The translations under genes and the position numbers were made by a program. From a virus, in IMG/VR virus record IMGVR_UViG_3300044960_000113, positions 64,001-128,000 of that record: DNA of 64,000 nt, one strand, 5' to 3'. Below, piece by piece: positions 9,148 to 55,886 of this stretch (position 1 is the first letter of the stretch; each line of letters starts with the position of its first letter). Below the pieces are notes generated by a model, which saw only the letters and a list, made by a program, of their open reading frames with translations, did no database searches and was not told the origin of the DNA.

Positions 9148-9559
9148 ACGCAAGACCTCCATCAGTTGAATAAAAAATTTCTTTGATACCAAAATCTTTT
9201 ACTGCTTGCATACACCCCTTACACGGTCGAGCATTTCCAATCTTGCCAGTTTTTTGAAGCCGATACACAAACAATTTCGCATTGGTAAAATCTTCAATTT
9301 GGTTCTTTGCGCGTACTATAGCATCGATTTCAGCATGAATAGAATGTTTGCAAGTATCATCATTAAACCGAAATGCATTATACTTCTTTTGCAGCGGATG
9401 AGATTTGTTCTCATCATTTACACCAACAGCAACTACACTTTTGTTAACAATTATAGCTGCACCAATCTTAAACTTTGAATGGTTAGACGTTTTCGATACA
9501 GCTTTTGCAACATCAAAATATCGCAAATCTCTATCAGAGAACATAGTCATCCTATTCAA
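9131..9559 (-). CDS. Cytidine/deoxycytidylate deaminase-family protein
   Basis: HAEIDAI and ARPCKGC zinc-binding motifs. Confidence 0.85.
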   Translation of the reverse strand: MNRMTMFSDRDLRYFDVAKAVSKTSNHSKFKIGAAIIVNKSVVAVGVNDENKSHPLQKKYNAFRFNDDTCKHSIHAEIDAIVRAKNQIEDFTNAKLFVYRLQKTGKIGNARPCKGCMQAVKDFGIKEIFYSTDGGLAYEKLN

Positions 9560-51323: not shown

Positions 51324-51731
51324 TTATAACATCCTTCCAAAAGTTATGTGAAATGGATAGTTACCAATAAATCCTAATTCTTTTCTTATTTCTTCTAATT
51401 TTTTAGATCTAACTGGTAATACCCAAAATTTCCAATGTTGCTCAACATTTACAGAATATTCAAAATCTATCTTTTGTCTATCATATTTTTTCCAAAATTT
51501 TCTAAATTCTGGTTTAACGGCTTTTCTACCATCTAAAATTGTAATATGTGGTTTCCATGCAGTTGGTTGTAGTCTTAAACCAAATCTTTTAAATACTAAA
51601 TATCTATAAAATGCTGCTAGACCATAATCAACTTCACAAATTAACCACCATTCTTCTTCTCGTCGTGTCTTTTTAATTTCTGGGCGTTTAGGATTATAAA
51701 TCATCATTCCTTTATATTTTACCCAAGTCAT
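51324..51731 (-). CDS. 2H phosphoesterase-family protein
   Basis: Two HxT motifs (KPHITI, FHITF); start moved to MTWVKY because the track start overlaps the tRNA. Confidence 0.65.
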   Translation of the reverse strand: MTWVKYKGMMIYNPKRPEIKKTRREEEWWLICEVDYGLAAFYRYLVFKRFGLRLQPTAWKPHITILDGRKAVKPEFRKFWKKYDRQKIDFEYSVNVEQHWKFWVLPVRSKKLEEIRKELGFIGNYPFHITFGRML

Positions 51732-51746
51732 AACAATTCTCCTATA

Positions 51747-51821
51747 TGGTGCCCCCAACTAGAATTGCACTAGTAACTGCGGGTTACGAATCCGCTATTA
51801 TGCTAATTTAACTATAAGGGC
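51747..51821 (-). tRNA. tRNA-Thr(CGU)
   Basis: GCCCTTA...GCGGA TT CGT AA CCCGC...GGGGGC A CCA; non-canonical T-loop TGCAATT. Confidence 0.8.
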
Positions 51822-51914: not shown

Positions 51915-53375
51915 TTAAACAGTAATAGCTTTATATCTATCACTATTAAGAACTTCTAACATCATTTCATATGCATCTAATATTTTTCCAGACATTAAAT
52001 TTTTGAAAATGCTTGGGCTACAACCCGAAACGTTTAAGAATCCACGATCATCCATACACATTGGAAATTGTTTGTTTCTTGATGCAACGTTCCAAAATAC
52101 TAGAAGTGGCATTTCATAACCTTTTTCATCCCATTCTTTTTTGATAACATTAAACAATGTATCGCTATTATTATAAGCACAAGCATCAAATTCCATATCT
52201 GAAATAACATAAATCTTTTTAATCATATCTTCAGATTTAATGTTGTTTTTAATTGCAACATTAAGAATAGTATCAAATACTTTCTTAATGTCGGTATTCA
52301 TATCCCATTTTGCACGAGATAAATTTTGGTATTTTTCATAAATATCACGACCCTTAACTTCCTGAAGTTGTGGATTCAATGAAAATGTTAAAAACTTATT
52401 ATGGAATGGTCCAGTGTTTCGTTCTGCTGTATAAATACCAAGAGAAATAGAAACATGCAATGGTAAACCTGACATTGAACCTGAAACGTCACACACACAA
52501 ATACTATTCTCGCCCTTAGCAATATAGTCAGGTTGATTGTTCCACATAGTGTCAAGAGTTTTACGCTCTGATTCAGTAATCATGATATTTGAACAATTAC
52601 GAACAATTTCATATGGGAATTGAGTCGATGCGTTAATTTTTGTTTCACCATTATTGACTTTATTTAAATATTCAATATAACGAACATTATCATGTCTAAT
52701 GAATGCTTTACGATATTTAAGATTTGCTTGTGATGGAACATGTTCATAAACAACTTTATCCCATTGATTAGATGATAAAGTACGTTCTAACACATCAATT
52801 TTTTTACGAAGTAATGAAAGACCACGACGATATGTTTTTGGTGAAATTCCAAAAGCTTCACGAGTTTTACGTGCAAGTTCTCTCGATTTTGGTGATGATG
52901 TGTTTTCTGATTTTAACCATTTAGCTAAAATAGATGGTTTATCACTTTCTAAATCTTTGATAAATTGTTCACGCATCAATTTTAATGCGTCACTTTCAAC
53001 ACTAGTACCAACTAACGCATATAAGTCATCCCATCTTCCATATTCTGGAATAAGATGAAGATTTCTACGAACTGTGTGTGGAGCAATATTAGCTAGATCG
53101 CGTAAAAACACTCTAAATGTTTCACGCTCACCTTGTCCACCACGAACATCGCGGAAATAAAATAAGGTTTTGACTGTTAGTAATGGATCTTCATTATAAG
53201 CATCTAAGAAAAGATCGTGTGCATTTTCAGCACCTCTTCCGGTTCTAAGTGCACCAGCTTGGCTAAATAAATCTAAAACTCGTGAATTTGTAGATTTATT
53301 TGAAATTGCACCATTTTCTGTGAATGCAGTTTTATTGAAATGATTTTCTAAAGCTTGAGCGATTGTGACTGTCAT
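51915..53375 (-). CDS. TROVE-like/vWA protein (DUF2828 family, Ro60-related)
   Basis: TENGA, RDVRGGQGER, YGRWDDL, AKWL, QFPYEI, CDVSGSM, ISDMEFD, FWNV; ATG at 53375 with GGAGG. Confidence 0.85.
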   Translation of the reverse strand: MTVTIAQALENHFNKTAFTENGAISNKSTNSRVLDLFSQAGALRTGRGAENAHDLFLDAYNEDPLLTVKTLFYFRDVRGGQGERETFRVFLRDLANIAPHTVRRNLHLIPEYGRWDDLYALVGTSVESDALKLMREQFIKDLESDKPSILAKWLKSENTSSPKSRELARKTREAFGISPKTYRRGLSLLRKKIDVLERTLSSNQWDKVVYEHVPSQANLKYRKAFIRHDNVRYIEYLNKVNNGETKINASTQFPYEIVRNCSNIMITESERKTLDTMWNNQPDYIAKGENSICVCDVSGSMSGLPLHVSISLGIYTAERNTGPFHNKFLTFSLNPQLQEVKGRDIYEKYQNLSRAKWDMNTDIKKVFDTILNVAIKNNIKSEDMIKKIYVISDMEFDACAYNNSDTLFNVIKKEWDEKGYEMPLLVFWNVASRNKQFPMCMDDRGFLNVSGCSPSIFKNLMSGKILDAYEMMLEVLNSDRYKAITV

Positions 53376-53386
53376 AATGACCTCCA

Positions 53387-53426
53387 AGACATATTGTTTA
53401 AATAAAAAATTTTGCTGTTAATGTCT
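53387..53426 (-). ncRNA. ACAGCAA stem element 1 (abuts the RBS of the TROVE gene)
   Basis: AGACAT-TAACAGCAA...-ATGTCT followed immediately by TGGAGG. Confidence 0.7.
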
Positions 53427-53444
53427 TTTTTGAGAAGAATTAAC

Positions 53445-53493
53445 TAGACACATTTTAAGGTTATCATCCTCAAATAGTTGCTGTTAGTGTCTA
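53445..53493 (-). ncRNA. ACAGCAA stem element 2
   Basis: TAGACAC-TAACAGCAA...GAGG/CCTT hairpin...-GTGTCTA. Confidence 0.7.
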
Positions 53494-53502
53494 TATTTTT
53501 AT

Positions 53503-53531
53503 ATTATATATAAAGAAGTTTTTAAAGTAAA
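53503..53531 (-). promoter_or_regulatory. Promoter of the TROVE leader
   Basis: TTTACT-N17-TATAAT. Confidence 0.75.
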
Positions 53532-53552
53532 AGGTTAAAATATCCTAAATGT

Positions 53553-53738
53553 TTATTCTTCTTCGTCTTTAATTTTGATAGATTTTTTCTTACTTTCCTG
53601 TTCAGCAACTGCCATACCAATAATTAGACGCTTAATTTCACCACGTCGATGTGGGTCAATAATATTATCAAAATAACATTTGTAATGACCTGGAAGACGA
53701 AAGTTTGGCCCGGTAATTTTTTTACGTGGTTCTGACAT
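53553..53738 (-). CDS. Hypothetical protein
   Basis: ORF with AGGAG RBS. Confidence 0.6.
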   Translation of the reverse strand: MSEPRKKITGPNFRLPGHYKCYFDNIIDPHRRGEIKRLIIGMAVAEQESKKKSIKIKDEEE

Positions 53739-53978
53739 TAATTTTCTCCTGCTTATTAAAATTTTATGAAAATATTTTTAAATTTTAATTAATTTATTGA
53801 GAAAATTTTCTCTATAAAATCTATTTTGTAATTGTGAAAAGATATTTCTATTTTCTTTTGATAATAAGAGAAAACTAATATTGCGAAGACGATTAAATTC
53901 ATCTTTTAAAGCTAATTCATCCTCTTTAATGTTTTGTCGATTAATTAACATTATCTCTCAATATTTATAAAGTGAAAA

Positions 53979-54052
53979 TGGTTGCGATCGCCGGTTCTGC
54001 CCACGGCTCTCGTGGTTATGAGCCACGCGTGACACTAGTTCACTTCCTCGCA
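53979..54052 (-). tRNA. Degenerate tRNA(CAU), fMet-like
   Basis: CGTGG CT CAT AA CCACG arm; ...CGCAACCA end; two acceptor mismatches and an aberrant T-loop. Confidence 0.6.
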
Positions 54053-54056
54053 ATTT

Positions 54057-54151
54057 TGGTAGTCCCCCACGGTTACGATCCGTGCCGTTCCAGCCAATCT
54101 AGCCGGTCTCGCGAGTTTATAAGACTCGCCCGCTCACCAGAGCTGAGGACT
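54057..54151 (-). tRNA. Atypical tRNA with UAU anticodon, long variable arm and 4-nt D-loop
   Basis: AGTCCTC/GGGGACT A CCA; GCTC-TGGT-GAGC; GCGAGT-CTTATAA-ACTCGC; CCGGCT/GGCTGG variable stem; T-loop ATCGTAA. Confidence 0.75.
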
Positions 54152-54161
54152 ATCTTTTAAC

Positions 54162-54267
54162 AAGACACAAAACCGAAGGATCGGTTCCACTCCTCTCGTT
54201 ATAATCTACGATCGCCGAGATTGTCCAAACGGACACTCCATTATAAAAAATTTGCTGTATGTGTCTT
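54162..54267 (-). ncRNA. ACAGCAA stem element 3: 106-nt multi-hairpin RNA (Y-RNA-like candidate)
   Basis: AAGACAC-ATACAGCAA...three hairpins (TGTCC/GGACA, TCTCG/CGAGA, AACCGA/TCGGTT)...GTGTCTT. Confidence 0.7.
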
Positions 54268-54281
54268 TTTATTATTTATTA

Positions 54282-54389
54282 ATTATATATCAAATTTTAA
54301 TAAAAGTAAACAAAAATATCCTAAAAATTAAATATTTTGTTATATGAATTTTTATTTAAAATTATATATTAAATTTTATCAAAAATAAA
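54282..54389 (-). promoter_or_regulatory. Tandem promoters of the RNA cassette
   Basis: TTTACT-N17-TATAAT (54282-54310) and TTTATT-N17-TATAAT (54361-54389), each preceded by TTAGGATATTTTTG. Confidence 0.7.
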
Positions 54390-54407
54390 CAAAAATATCC
54401 TAATTTT

Positions 54408-55253
54408 TTAATCTAATAAAAACGTAGATAAATTAACATTCGGGTTCCACCATTCCGGTAAAAATCTTTTTGCTGGAACACCATTATCTAAAGAATCAAA
54501 AAAATCATTTATATATTGTTTAAGTTCATCACTATTTATTATGAGTGATTCATGGTCAAAATTTTGTTTTTGAAATAATGCGTGTTTAATATTTTCATTT
54601 GGATTGAACATATCCCTTGCTAAAATTTCAAAATCATTTATTGATTGTTCAATATTATCTTCATAACTTAAATTTAAAATTGTTCTATCTTGAAGATGTA
54701 ATTTTAATATATCAAAAATAACAATTCGTTGTAAACACCCATTAACTAAAATTCTATCATCTGGTAAAAACATAAAATTTTTATTTTTATTATTATTATT
54801 TTCTTCTAAAGATAGCGACCATTTTTTAGTTTTAAATCCAACAAGATATGAAGCAACTGATTTAAATATATTTTTACGATTCAAAAAAATAAATTGGTTG
54901 TTTTCATTTTTTAATAAACGTTTTGCAAAATCTGGGCATCTCATAATAAAATCACCGAAAAATTTTAACATAAAAGGTCTTCCAGGTAAATTATTTAACA
55001 ATTTTTCTCTTCTTAAAAATTCTTTATATTTATCTTCATATGTTTTTAAAAGTTTATACATTTTACCATCATGGTGATTTATACATATTGGTATATGTGT
55101 TTTTTGATCTTCTATAACTTCAGTGCCTAAATTTAAAAATTCAAATAAACTTATATAATTTGGTAAATTTTGTTTAATTATTTGATATGTAACAGTTGAT
55201 CCTGATCTAGGATAACAAACTAAAATAATATTTTTATTTTTATCAAACTCCAT
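54408..55253 (-). CDS. Sulfotransferase-family protein (Stf0-like)
   Basis: PAPS-binding loop CYPRSGST; LNRKNIFKSVAS; LSYED. Confidence 0.65.
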   Translation of the reverse strand: MEFDKNKNIILVCYPRSGSTVTYQIIKQNLPNYISLFEFLNLGTEVIEDQKTHIPICINHHDGKMYKLLKTYEDKYKEFLRREKLLNNLPGRPFMLKFFGDFIMRCPDFAKRLLKNENNQFIFLNRKNIFKSVASYLVGFKTKKWSLSLEENNNNKNKNFMFLPDDRILVNGCLQRIVIFDILKLHLQDRTILNLSYEDNIEQSINDFEILARDMFNPNENIKHALFQKQNFDHESLIINSDELKQYINDFFDSLDNGVPAKRFLPEWWNPNVNLSTFLLD

Positions 55254-55262
55254 AATTATTTC

Positions 55263-55886
55263 CTATTGCCCCATAATTGGTATTTTATTTAATTTTTTAA
55301 ATGCCCATTTTCTTTCAGAACAAAACCAACATTTATCACAATAACCAACAGTTTGTTCTGTACAAGAATGTGTATATTCTAATAAATATTCTACATTTTC
55401 TCTATAATATATATCAATAATATGATATTTAAAAATATCAATAAATGGTCTAGATATTTTATTTGGCAAAATGTTTCCTTTAATTCTAATAGGTCCGGAA
55501 AAATTTGTATCAAGATTTTCTAATGGTATTGAATTACCAGCTAAAAAAATAAAATCAACTATATTAGATTTAATAATTTTTTCTATTGTTAATGGTACTA
55601 TTTTATAATGGGGTGTTGATTTATCAATATCAATAGCTTCATGTTTTAAATTATTTAATCCCATTTTATCTAATACTCTATTGCTATTGATGATATTGTC
55701 ACCAATAACTTTGTTTATTGTAAATACTGTTAATGGATAATTTGGGAAATATTTTGTTAAGAGATGAAGTAATATTGTACTATCAGTACCACCACTGTGT
55801 AAAATTCCAATAGATTTTATATTATTTGGAATCTCTAATGTTATAGTTCGTTCATCATTGATTGGTCCACACTTTAATTCTATCAT
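55263..55886 (-). CDS. PP-loop ATPase (QueC-like)
   Basis: LHSGGTDS; HSC...CDKCWFCSER. Confidence 0.7.
   Translation of the reverse strand: MIELKCGPINDERTITLEIPNNIKSIGILHSGGTDSTILLHLLTKYFPNYPLTVFTINKVIGDNIINSNRVLDKMGLNNLKHEAIDIDKSTPHYKIVPLTIEKIIKSNIVDFIFLAGNSIPLENLDTNFSGPIRIKGNILPNKISRPFIDIFKYHIIDIYYRENVEYLLEYTHSCTEQTVGYCDKCWFCSERKWAFKKLNKIPIMGQ

What the first reader, a model, noticed from the sequence alone, without database searches (positions are those of the whole stretch)
54162..54267. Candidate phage Y-RNA analogue heading a tRNA transcript
Seen: a third ACAGCAA element closes a 106-nt RNA with three internal hairpins (cloverleaf-like). It starts just after a consensus promoter and is followed within 10 nt by the two atypical tRNAs. 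Known: bacterial Y RNAs have a Ro-binding stem plus a tRNA-like domain. Inference: TROVE protein, this RNA and the leader hairpins form a self-contained ribonucleoprotein system for tRNA quality control or repair, with the free RNA titrating autorepression. I do not recognise it as a named family.
Basis: partly seen in the sequence, partly recalled or inferred. Interest (0 to 1): 0.78.

Follow-up and report, generated by a model that had tools for sequence, protein, structure and literature searches.

The report
Phage Y-like RNA for Ro-like protein
The 106-base element is real: it is one of four small RNAs in this hot-spring phage that share a conserved "handle" found across very different phages beside a Ro60-shaped protein, which points to a largely undescribed relative of the Ro/Y-RNA particle, though no RNA or binding data exist yet.

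Summary
Observation confirmed. On the minus strand, 54267..54162 is closed by AAGACAC(A)/(U)GUGUCUU, with ACAGCAA two bases after the 5' strand and an invariant G (54161) after the 3' strand.

This "handle" is not chance. The pattern occurs three times in the 184-kb record, all within 900 bases of the DUF2828 gene. A covariance model built only from other phages finds the element at 34 bits, the two leader copies, and a fourth copy 14 kb away.

In 80 IMG/VR phage loci with a DUF2828 gene, ACAGCAA occurs 261 times on the gene strand and 39 on the other. The stem covaries and the trailing G is kept in 134 of 137. Listeria, E. coli and Mycobacterium phages carry it next to the gene; T4, T5 and SPO1, which lack the gene, do not.

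The protein models as a Ro60 ring plus vWA domain. It is not a Pfam TROVE member.

Cargo elsewhere is usually tRNA-like, as in YrlA. Here it is an orphan three-hairpin, cloverleaf-like module without tRNA signatures.

No Rfam family matches and I found no paper describing it. Dictyostelium Class I RNAs share the grammar.

Binding, RNA stability, autoregulation and a tRNA-repair role are inferred. This scan has noted the same handle on other DNA (108 earlier notes).

The parts
54282..54310 (-). Sigma-70-like promoter: TTTACT, 17-nt spacer, TATAAT. A TAGGATATTTT box lies just upstream.
   Evidence: 10 of 12 matches; the same box precedes copy 2 and two other local sites. Consensus match only; the transcription start is not mapped.
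54261..54267 (-). Handle, 5' strand of the 7-bp closing stem (AAGACAC). A 54260 adds an eighth pair with U 54169.
   Evidence: Matches family columns 3-9 of alignment A2.
54252..54258 (-). Invariant heptamer ACAGCAA, two bases after the 5' strand.
   Evidence: Invariant in 48 of 48 aligned family members.
54169..54251 (-). Cargo: an AU-rich linker, then three predicted hairpins (54235..54222, 54220..54194, 54187..54170). The layout is cloverleaf-like, but there are no T-loop or D-loop signatures.
   Evidence: folds; weak z-scores. (no tRNA or other Rfam match). (no similar sequence in the genome or in about 170 loci).
54161..54168 (-). Handle, 3' strand GUGUCUU (54168..54162), plus the invariant trailing G (54161).
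   Evidence: The trailing G is kept in 134 of 137 family members, against 25% in controls.
54057..54151 (-). 95-nt tRNA-Ile(UAU)-like gene with a long variable arm and encoded CCA. It starts 9 nt after the handle.
   Evidence: ARAGORN. (cloverleaf is the minimum-energy fold, z = -2.7). Not found by Rfam's tRNA model.
53979..54052 (-). Doubtful second tRNA-like stretch with a CUCAUAA loop and an ACCA end.
   Evidence: z = -0.17, no cloverleaf in the minimum-energy fold. Not called by ARAGORN.
53443..53495 (-). Handle RNA copy 2. Short form with its own promoter (53531..53503). The cargo is a 7-bp hairpin with an anticodon-like loop AUGAUAA.
   Evidence: 42.5 bits, E = 2e-8..
53384..53429 (-). 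Handle RNA copy 3. Short form. Its trailing G (53385) is the first base of the GGAGG ribosome-binding site.
   Evidence: 34.2 bits..
51915..53375 (-). Gene for the Ro60-like protein (DUF2828 + DUF7788, PHROG 850), 486 aa from ATG 53375. The MIDAS residues D-x-S-x-S are invariant.
   Evidence: families. (D300, S302, S304 invariant). (model pLDDT 78; top 12 PDB matches are all Ro60). (start codon).

Best explanation
The element at 54269..54160 (minus strand) is a small non-coding RNA of an undescribed family, the 'ACAGCAA-handle' RNAs. They play the part of Y RNAs for the phage's Ro60-shaped DUF2828 protein.

Shown:
- The handle has a fixed grammar: a 7-bp closing stem W-A-G-R-C-N-N, two bases, ACAGCAA, variable cargo, the complementary strand, then G.
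- The stem covaries.
- The handle sits on the gene's strand next to DUF2828 genes in very different phages.
- This element fits a model of the handle built without it.

Inferred:
- The RNA starts at the sigma-70-like promoter a few bases upstream.
- Its 3' end is released when RNase P cuts the tRNA that starts 9 nt downstream, followed by trimming.
- The handle is the docking site for the ring protein, and the cargo is displayed.
- In relatives the cargo is a tRNA body, a permuted tRNA (as in YrlA) or a single tRNA arm. Here it is an acceptor-less, three-hairpin module.
- The particle therefore most likely acts on the tRNA world during infection. It could tether a tRNA-recognising enzyme or nuclease to the ring, as Y RNA tethers PNPase to Rsr. 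Or it could offer tRNA look-alikes to host tRNA-targeting factors.
- Leader copy 3, which abuts the ribosome-binding site, could let the protein limit its own translation.
For: Specificity in this genome:
- The pattern occurs 3 times, control 0, all next to the gene.
- Model R1, built from 48 elements of other phages, gives 42.5, 34.2 and 34.0 bits for the three copies and finds a fourth copy in the tRNA cluster.

Family evidence:
- ACAGCAA occurs 261 times on the gene strand and 39 on the other in 704 kb of DUF2828 loci, against about 43 expected per strand.
- The distance from AGRC to ACAGCAA is 8 in 142 of 159 elements.
- Seven of nine stem pairs change on both sides. 85.6% of cells are paired, against 69% in shuffles and 28-42% with slid partners.
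- A 3' partner strand was found for 137 of 162 sites, and 134 of these 137 keep the trailing G. In controls the figures are 30% and 25%.
- The exact pattern AGACACNNACAGCAA, 65-95 bases, GTGTCTTG matches 99 stretches of IMG/VR DNA. I estimate one or two by chance.

Cultured phages:
- Listeria LP-083-2, E. coli VpaE1 and Mycobacterium Wigglewiggle each carry copies within 400 nt of the gene, and no full-length hit elsewhere in the genome.
- T4, T5 and SPO1 lack both the gene and full-length hits.

Protein: full-length structural matches to phage, frog, human and Deinococcus Ro60.

Cargo:
- 57 of 68 long elements with this stem hold a T-loop motif.
- Permuted T arm / acceptor hairpin / D arm bodies occur.
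- Anticodon-like 7-nt loops occur in 10 of 68 short cargos, against 0.95 in shuffles.

Published precedent:
- Ro60 with Y RNA tethers PNPase, and phage Ro60 binds nearby Y-like RNAs (PMC4201824, PMC12135203).
- The Listeria phage homologue CKA15_055 lies downstream of very highly transcribed non-coding regions that the authors guessed to be Y RNAs (PMC12282133).
Against: - No RNA data. No RNA sequencing run holds this phage, so a discrete, stable 106-nt RNA is not shown.
- Binding is inferred from co-occurrence only.
- Unlike most long relatives, this cargo has no tRNA signature, no homologue anywhere I could search and weak folding statistics.
- The handle differs in sequence from every known Ro-binding site. 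The protein is similar to Ro60 only at the fold level (TM about 0.5, 15% identity).
- The highly transcribed regions in the Listeria study could not be mapped onto the handle copies from the text.
Confidence: 0.7

Rival explanations
1. The handle is a cis-acting signal on the tRNA precursor or mRNA. It would mark a processing site or a translational operator recognised by the DUF2828 protein or an RNase. It would not be the body of a free, stable partner RNA.
For: - The element heads a transcript with tRNA-like genes 9 nt downstream.
- Copy 3 abuts the ribosome-binding site, and 10 other loci show the same 14-18-nt spacing to the start codon.
- Handles are interspersed with tRNA genes in many loci.
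- The fourth copy starts right after a tRNA's CCA end.
Against: - Many copies stand alone with their own promoter-like sites.
- Cargos are elaborate tRNA mimics, which a mere cleavage signal would not need.
- The 5' and 3' strands enclose the cargo, as in Y RNAs and Class I RNAs.
- The two readings are not exclusive.
Confidence: 0.12
2. The handle RNAs are real small RNAs, but their partner is not the DUF2828 protein. It could be a host factor, or another phage protein that travels with tRNA clusters.
For: - Association is the only evidence for the pairing.
- The fourth copy lies 14 kb from the gene, inside the tRNA cluster.
- In Dictyostelium the one proven direct binder of Class I RNAs is an RRM protein, Rnp1A (PMC7919456).
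Against: - In Listeria, E. coli and Mycobacterium phages, which share few other genes, the copies lie within 400 nt of the DUF2828 gene.
- tRNA-rich phages without the gene lack handles.
Confidence: 0.1
3. It is a DNA-level element. AAGACA, a 16-nt spacer and TATAAT inside the element form a promoter or operator, and the 3' complement is incidental.
For: The scan lists AAGACA / 16 / TATAAT at 54267..54240 with 10 of 12 matches.
Against: - Promoter-like hits in this AT-rich stretch are no more frequent than in shuffles (13 found, 16.6 expected).
- The other copies and the GC-rich mycobacteriophage copies have no -10 box at that spacing.
- A complementary strand at a variable distance, covarying with the 5' strand and followed by an invariant G, makes sense only for RNA.
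Confidence: 0.04
4. It is a decayed tRNA gene, or a leader with a chance closing stem.
For: - The layout is cloverleaf-like.
- Its neighbours are odd, GC-rich tRNA-like genes.
- Folding statistics are weak.
Against: - ARAGORN and Rfam's tRNA model find nothing.
- The handle scores 34 bits against a model built from other phages.
Confidence: 0.03

Closest known systems
Bacterial and phage Y RNAs with Ro60/Rsr: YrlA, YrlB, Yrn1 (Chen et al. 2014, PMC4201824); Yrl1/Yrl2 of Thermus phage phiLo (PMC12135203)
   Same: - Small RNAs encoded beside a ring-plus-vWA protein.
- The 5' and 3' ends pair into a stem next to a conserved single-stranded motif.
- The variable module often mimics tRNA. In relatives of this element it shows the same permuted order as YrlA: T arm, acceptor hairpin, D arm.
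- RNA-repair genes lie nearby.
   Different: - The protein is DUF2828/DUF7788, not Pfam TROVE. It is related to Ro60 only at the fold level.
- The conserved motif is ACAGCAA plus a trailing G, not the GNCGAA/CGAA-type site.
- No Rfam family matches.
- There are several copies per genome with interchangeable cargos.
- This copy has no tRNA-like signature.
Class I RNAs of dictyostelid social amoebae (PMC7919456; search pattern in PMC5054030)
   Same: - Same grammar: a short stem joining the 5' and 3' ends, a conserved motif ending in ACAGCAA directly after the 5' strand, a variable remainder, and conserved terminal residues (GTTGRCCTTACAGCAA ... GTCAACTG).
- Many copies per genome, highly expressed.
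   Different: - Eukaryotic, 42-65 nt, with a 6-bp stem and three spacer bases, so the register is shifted by one.
- The known binder is the RRM protein Rnp1A.
- The authors found them only in Dictyostelia.
- Homology to the phage handle was not tested here. I had no Class I sequences and no amoeba genomes.
tRNA genes and tRNA-like elements of phage tRNA clusters
   Same: - It sits in a tRNA operon, is probably processed with it, and has a cloverleaf-like three-hairpin layout.
- In other phages the handle is even embedded in true tRNA scaffolds (L011 762-880, L032 6609-6732).
   Different: There is no acceptor stem with CCA, no T loop and no D loop. ARAGORN and Rfam do not detect it.

Membership tests
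ACAGCAA-handle RNAs next to DUF2828 genes (undescribed; defined here from 48 elements of other phages) | 7-bp closing stem with A-U and G-C at the second and third pairs (AG...CU) | tested here: met
   AAGACAC/GUGUCUU at 54267..54261 and 54168..54162. Family pairs are counted.
ACAGCAA-handle RNAs next to DUF2828 genes (undescribed; defined here from 48 elements of other phages) | Two bases, then the invariant ACAGCAA after the 5' strand | tested here: met
   AU, then ACAGCAA at 54258..54252. The offset is 8 in 142 of 159 family members.
ACAGCAA-handle RNAs next to DUF2828 genes (undescribed; defined here from 48 elements of other phages) | Invariant G directly after the 3' strand | tested here: met
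   G 54161. Kept in 134 of 137 family members.
ACAGCAA-handle RNAs next to DUF2828 genes (undescribed; defined here from 48 elements of other phages) | Same strand as a DUF2828 gene and close to it | tested here: met
   About 790 nt upstream of the ATG at 53375, on the same strand.
ACAGCAA-handle RNAs next to DUF2828 genes (undescribed; defined here from 48 elements of other phages) | Significant score against a covariance model built without the window | tested here: met
   34.0 bits. E = 1e-7 over 2 kb and 1e-5 over the 184-kb record. E-values are rough.
Y RNA / YrlA (Ro60 partner RNAs) | Match to the curated Rfam models | tested here: not met
   No Rfam match at E <= 10 in 53300-54500, and none at gathering score in the window or in 15 related loci.
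Y RNA / YrlA (Ro60 partner RNAs) | Conserved Ro-binding helix with the GNCGAA-type motif | tested here: not met
   The sequence shows ACAGCAA instead. The motif is as described in PMC4201824 and PMC12135203.
Y RNA / YrlA (Ro60 partner RNAs) | Encoded next to a Ro60 orthologue (TROVE + vWA) | tested here: inconclusive
   The neighbour is Ro60-like by fold but belongs to DUF2828/DUF7788, not TROVE.
Y RNA / YrlA (Ro60 partner RNAs) | Bound by the Ro60-type protein | not testable with these tools
   Needs immunoprecipitation or gel-shift assays.
Y RNA / YrlA (Ro60 partner RNAs) | tRNA-like domain with T and D arms (YrlA) | tested here: not met
   This copy has no T-loop or D-loop motif and no tRNA-model match. 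Family relatives do have them.
tRNA | Cloverleaf with acceptor stem, T loop and D loop, detectable by ARAGORN or Rfam RF00005 | tested here: not met
Dictyostelid Class I RNA | Short terminal stem, 11-nt motif ending in ACAGCAA after the 5' strand, 42-65 nt long | tested here: inconclusive
   The grammar and the heptamer are shared. The register differs by one base and this copy is 106 nt. No Class I model or sequences were available to test homology.
Ro60 / TROVE protein family (for the neighbouring gene) | Pfam TROVE domain (PF05731) by sequence | tested here: not met
   Pfam gives DUF2828 + DUF7788 only. A profile of 13 homologues finds no PDB Ro60 at E <= 1.
Ro60 / TROVE protein family (for the neighbouring gene) | HEAT-repeat ring plus vWA domain with a MIDAS motif | tested here: met
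   The top 12 Foldseek matches are all Ro60, over the full length, with TM 0.4-0.55. D300, S302 and S304 are invariant. The model is predicted, with pLDDT 78.

The most novel reading that the evidence does not exclude
The ACAGCAA handle and the DUF2828 ring form an ancient ribonucleoprotein shared by phages, bacteria and eukaryotes, and the unexplained Class I RNAs of social amoebae are its eukaryotic members.

In phages, the particle would display interchangeable tRNA parts as decoys or baits for host tRNA-targeting defence nucleases or tRNA-modifying enzymes.

In this window the cargos and neighbours are isoleucine-themed: AUUAUAA and AUGAUAA loops, a tRNA-Ile(UAU), a CAU tRNA-like stretch, and a PP-loop ATPase nearby. 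That would suggest a dedicated role in AUA/AUH decoding, or in protecting it.
Probability: 0.2. Interest if true: 0.9.

Novelty: new variant of a known kind. Interest (0 to 1): 0.68.

Why it matters
- Ro60/Y-RNA particles are conserved from bacteria to humans, yet their function is poorly understood.
- A second, sequence-unrelated pairing of a handle with a ring protein would give a large natural set of variants: hundreds of phages, several RNAs each, with swappable tRNA-mimic cargos. Such a set could show what these rings do with tRNA-like RNAs.
- It would assign a function to a large DUF family (PHROG 850, 710 phage records).
- It would explain unannotated, probably highly expressed stretches in therapeutic and biocontrol phages (Felix O1-like, Listeria P100-like).
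- It offers a testable partner-protein candidate for Dictyostelium Class I RNAs.
- For this window, it explains three (in the whole record, four) otherwise unannotated conserved elements.

Tried and rejected
Searches that found nothing or could not run:
The closest relatives of the protein (P0001-P0006, 62-71% identity) could not be fetched, so covariation in this copy's cargo could not be tested.
- A single-protein locus search in IMG/VR found nothing.
- blastn of the region against phage records found nothing.
- Rfam found nothing at gathering score or at E <= 10.
- A sequence-profile search of the PDB found nothing.
- blastn-short of the cargo against the genome and about 170 loci returned only the cargo itself.

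Sequencing runs:
- No RNA holder is listed for this DNA.
- Laying three DNA runs gave no variant contig over 54160-54270.

Literature:
- Searches for DUF2828, TROVE/vWA/phage, Ro60/phage/tRNA cluster and Ro-like/phage found no description of the handle.
- The highly transcribed regions of Listeria phage CKA15 could not be placed on the handle copies from the text alone.

Readings rejected:
- Internal promoter (AAGACA / 16 / TATAAT).
- Intrinsic terminator. The third hairpin is flagged, but its U tract is broken.
- Decayed tRNA.
- A weak model hit at 9417-9487(+), 15 bits, E = 0.24, lacks the AG of the stem and is taken as chance.

Full report
**What is there.**

Everything lies on the minus strand. 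Reading 5' to 3':
- A sigma-70-like promoter (TTTACT, 17-nt spacer, TATAAT) at 54310..54282.
- The strand AAGACAC (54267..54261), two bases, then ACAGCAA (54258..54252).
- 83 bases of cargo.
- GUGUCUU (54168..54162) and G 54161.
- After 9 more bases, a 95-nt tRNA-Ile(UAU)-like gene (54151..54057).
- A doubtful CAU tRNA-like stretch (about 54052..53979).
- Two small ORFs.
- Two short elements with the same stem-plus-ACAGCAA design (53495..53443 and 53429..53384).
- A 486-aa gene (ATG 53375 to 51915).

The minimum-energy fold of the 106 nt closes the 8-bp stem around three hairpins. Folding statistics are modest (z = -1.9), and the cargo alone folds differently (z = -0.8). The stem is therefore solid, while the 'cloverleaf' is only a plausible layout.

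**Is it more than chance?**

- AGACAYNWACAGCAA occurs three times in the 184-kb virus record. All three lie on one strand within 900 bases of the gene, and the reversed control pattern occurs zero times.
- I collected 80 IMG/VR loci that encode homologues of the neighbouring protein. In them ACAGCAA occurs 261 times on the gene strand and 39 on the other, against about 43 expected per strand. The copies cluster just before or just after the gene.
- Nearly every copy has the same grammar. It is W-A-G-R-C-N-N, two bases, ACAGCAA, cargo of 25-250 nt, N-N-G-Y-C-U-W, then G.
- On an alignment of 48 short elements from about 35 phage contigs (A2), seven of nine tested pairs change on both sides. 85.6% of cells pair, against 69% in shuffles and 28-42% with slid partners.
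- My selection required six of the pairs. Two features that I did not select for are also kept. The outer W-W pair is kept in 126 of 137 elements and the trailing G in 134 of 137. Random AGRC sites treated the same way give 40% and 25%.
- A covariance model built from A2, with no window sequence, finds the two leader copies at 42.5 and 34.2 bits. With filters off, or in the genome-wide search, it finds the 106-nt element at 34.0 bits (E about 1e-7 in 2 kb, 1e-5 in the whole record), treating the 68-nt core of the cargo as an insertion.
- The model also finds a fourth copy, with ACAACAA, at 132176..132110 of the record. That lies outside the window, directly after a tRNA's CCA end.

**The protein.**

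- Pfam gives DUF2828 + DUF7788, and PHROGs gives family 850, 'RNA-binding protein'.
- A profile of 13 homologues finds no PDB sequence.
- An AlphaFold model (pLDDT 78) matches Ro60 structures in its top 12 Foldseek hits, over the full length. They include Thermus phage phiLo Ro60, Xenopus and human Ro60, and Deinococcus Rsr.
- The MIDAS residues D-x-S-x-S are invariant.
- 'TROVE protein' is therefore right as a fold-level statement and wrong as a family assignment.
- tblastn finds the family in 710 phage records: Felix O1-like coliphages and Salmonella phages, Listeria P100-like phages, and Mycobacterium, Staphylococcus, Campylobacter, Enterococcus, Vibrio and Bacillus phages. They are variously annotated as 'Ro-like RNA binding protein', 'vWFA protein' or hypothetical.

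**Does the handle travel with the gene?**

- In three cultured phages that share few other genes, the copies lie within 400 nt of the gene. Listeria LP-083-2 has three upstream, E. coli VpaE1 has three downstream among tRNA genes, and Mycobacterium Wigglewiggle has three downstream. The motif survives even in the GC-rich mycobacteriophage.
- Whole-record searches give no full-length hit elsewhere in those genomes.
- T4, T5 and SPO1 carry tRNA genes but no DUF2828. They give no full-length hit.
- This is a small sample, but it is consistent with the 80-locus statistics.
- The exact pattern AGACACNNACAGCAA, 65-95 bases, GTGTCTTG matches 99 stretches of IMG/VR DNA. I estimate one or two by chance.

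**What the cargo is.**

Elsewhere the cargo is usually made of tRNA parts:
- Of 68 distinct long elements with this very stem, 57 hold a T-loop motif.
- Many have the order T arm, acceptor-like hairpin, D arm. That is the circular permutation described for YrlA (PMC4201824).
- Some have D arm, anticodon arm and T arm, with the handle in place of the acceptor stem (L022 2902, L065 3692, L145).
- Some true tRNA scaffolds carry a capped handle in the anticodon arm (L011 762-880, L032 6609-6732).
- Short cargos are enriched in anticodon-like hairpins, 10 of 68 against 0.95 in shuffles. Leader copy 2 of this window (loop AUGAUAA) is one of them.

The 106-nt element has the D / anticodon / T-like order of hairpins. 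It has no T-loop or D-loop signature, no Rfam match and no relative in anything I could search. It belongs to the minority of about 16% with non-canonical cargo.

**How it most likely works.**

By analogy with Ro60 and Y RNAs, the handle docks on the ring and the cargo is displayed. In those systems the stem binds the ring and the variable module tethers a partner such as PNPase (PMC4201824). Phage phiLo Ro60 binds two nearby Y-like RNAs and host PNPase (PMC12135203).

The setting points to the tRNA world during infection:
- The element sits in a tRNA cluster.
- A 2H phosphoesterase-like gene lies directly downstream (weak) and a PP-loop ATPase lies upstream.
- RtcB and an RNA ligase lie next to the Listeria homologue.

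I cannot tell whether the particle recruits an enzyme, guards phage tRNAs or baits host nucleases.

In Listeria phage CKA15 the homologue was detected in purified virions. It lies downstream of extremely highly transcribed non-coding regions with strong early promoters, and the authors guessed these to be Y RNAs (PMC12282133). I could not map those regions onto the handle copies from the text.

The autoregulation idea has circumstantial support. The trailing G of copy 3 is the first G of GGAGG, and in 10 of 33 loci with an upstream handle the last handle ends 14-18 nt before the start codon.

**Comparison with what is known.**

- The closest system is Ro60 with Y RNA, especially YrlA. Membership fails on the Rfam models and on the binding motif.
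- The grammar is also that of dictyostelid Class I RNAs. They have a short terminal stem, a motif ending in ACAGCAA after the 5' strand, a variable rest and conserved ends (PMC7919456; pattern GTTGRCCTTACAGCAA ... GTCAACTG in PMC5054030).
I checked the published motif, but I could not test homology.
- I found no paper that describes the handle or links it to DUF2828.

**Earlier notes of this scan.**

The same handle next to DUF2828 has been noted before on other DNA: 108 notes in at least 97 genomes, plus notes on this window's leader copies. My tests were made independently on this window and agree with them.

**Limits.**

- No RNA runs exist for it.
- Covariance-model E-values are rough.
- The protein structure is a prediction.

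Noticed in passing
G000:C1:132110-132176 (minus strand; outside the window, which ends at 128000): A fourth handle copy with ACAACAA instead of ACAGCAA (35.3 bits). It starts directly after the CCA end of a tRNA gene and is followed 5 nt later by another tRNA.
   Followed up: partly
window 54057-54151 (minus strand): A 95-nt tRNA-Ile(UAU)-like gene with a 4-nt D loop, a 6-bp anticodon stem, a long paired variable arm and the T loop AUCGUAA. ARAGORN calls it, but Rfam's tRNA model misses it even at E <= 10.
   Followed up: partly
window 53979-54052 and 54205-54216 (minus strand): The CAU tRNA-like stretch contains GGCGATCGC, and the cargo of the 106-nt element contains GGCGATCG. From my own knowledge, GCGATCGC is the HIP1 palindrome of cyanobacteria, so this may hint at a cyanobacterial host. 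I did not test this.
   Followed up: no
window 54401, 54322, 53546, 51315 (minus strand): A local promoter family with a shared TAGGATATTTT box upstream of TTTAC(T)...TATAAT. There are four copies in 3 kb, all on the strand of the Ro-like gene. Only three other matches to the core AGGATATTTT occur in the 184-kb record.
   Followed up: partly
window 53373-53387 (minus strand): The mechanical ORF start (TTG 53387) lies inside the handle of copy 3. The real start is most likely ATG 53375, five bases after GGAGG.
   Followed up: yes
L011:762-880, L011:893-1007, L011:3651-3778, L032:6609-6732: tRNA genes of 115-128 nt that carry a capped, circularly permuted handle (3' strand, small loop, 5' strand, ACAGCAA) in place of the anticodon loop.
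   Followed up: partly
short cargos of L012, L022, L023, L032, L050, L053 and window copy 2: Most anticodon-like cargo loops read N-U-N-N-U-A-A, that is, anticodons ending in U followed by A37 and A38 (Lys UUU, Asn GUU, Ser GCU, Thr GGU, Arg UCU, Ile GAU). This could be AT bias, or a preference for tRNAs that read ANN codons.
   Followed up: no
window 55263-55886 (minus strand): A 207-aa PP-loop ATPase with weak matches to QueC and to ATP_bind_3 (by my recollection the family that includes TilS), just upstream of a cluster whose anticodon-like loops are all isoleucine-type (UAU, GAU, CAU).
   Followed up: no
L013:7152-7248 and L023:697-1074: A skipping-rope RNA (RF02924, 62 bits) and a full class B RNase P RNA (238 bits) lie in phage tRNA clusters a few kb from DUF2828 genes.
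   Followed up: no
window 51324-51758 (minus strand): Directly downstream of the Ro-like gene lies a 144-aa protein with a weak 2H phosphoesterase ('Swiss Army Knife') match. At 21.6 bits it is below Pfam's cut-off. It also matches PHROG 12204.
   Followed up: partly
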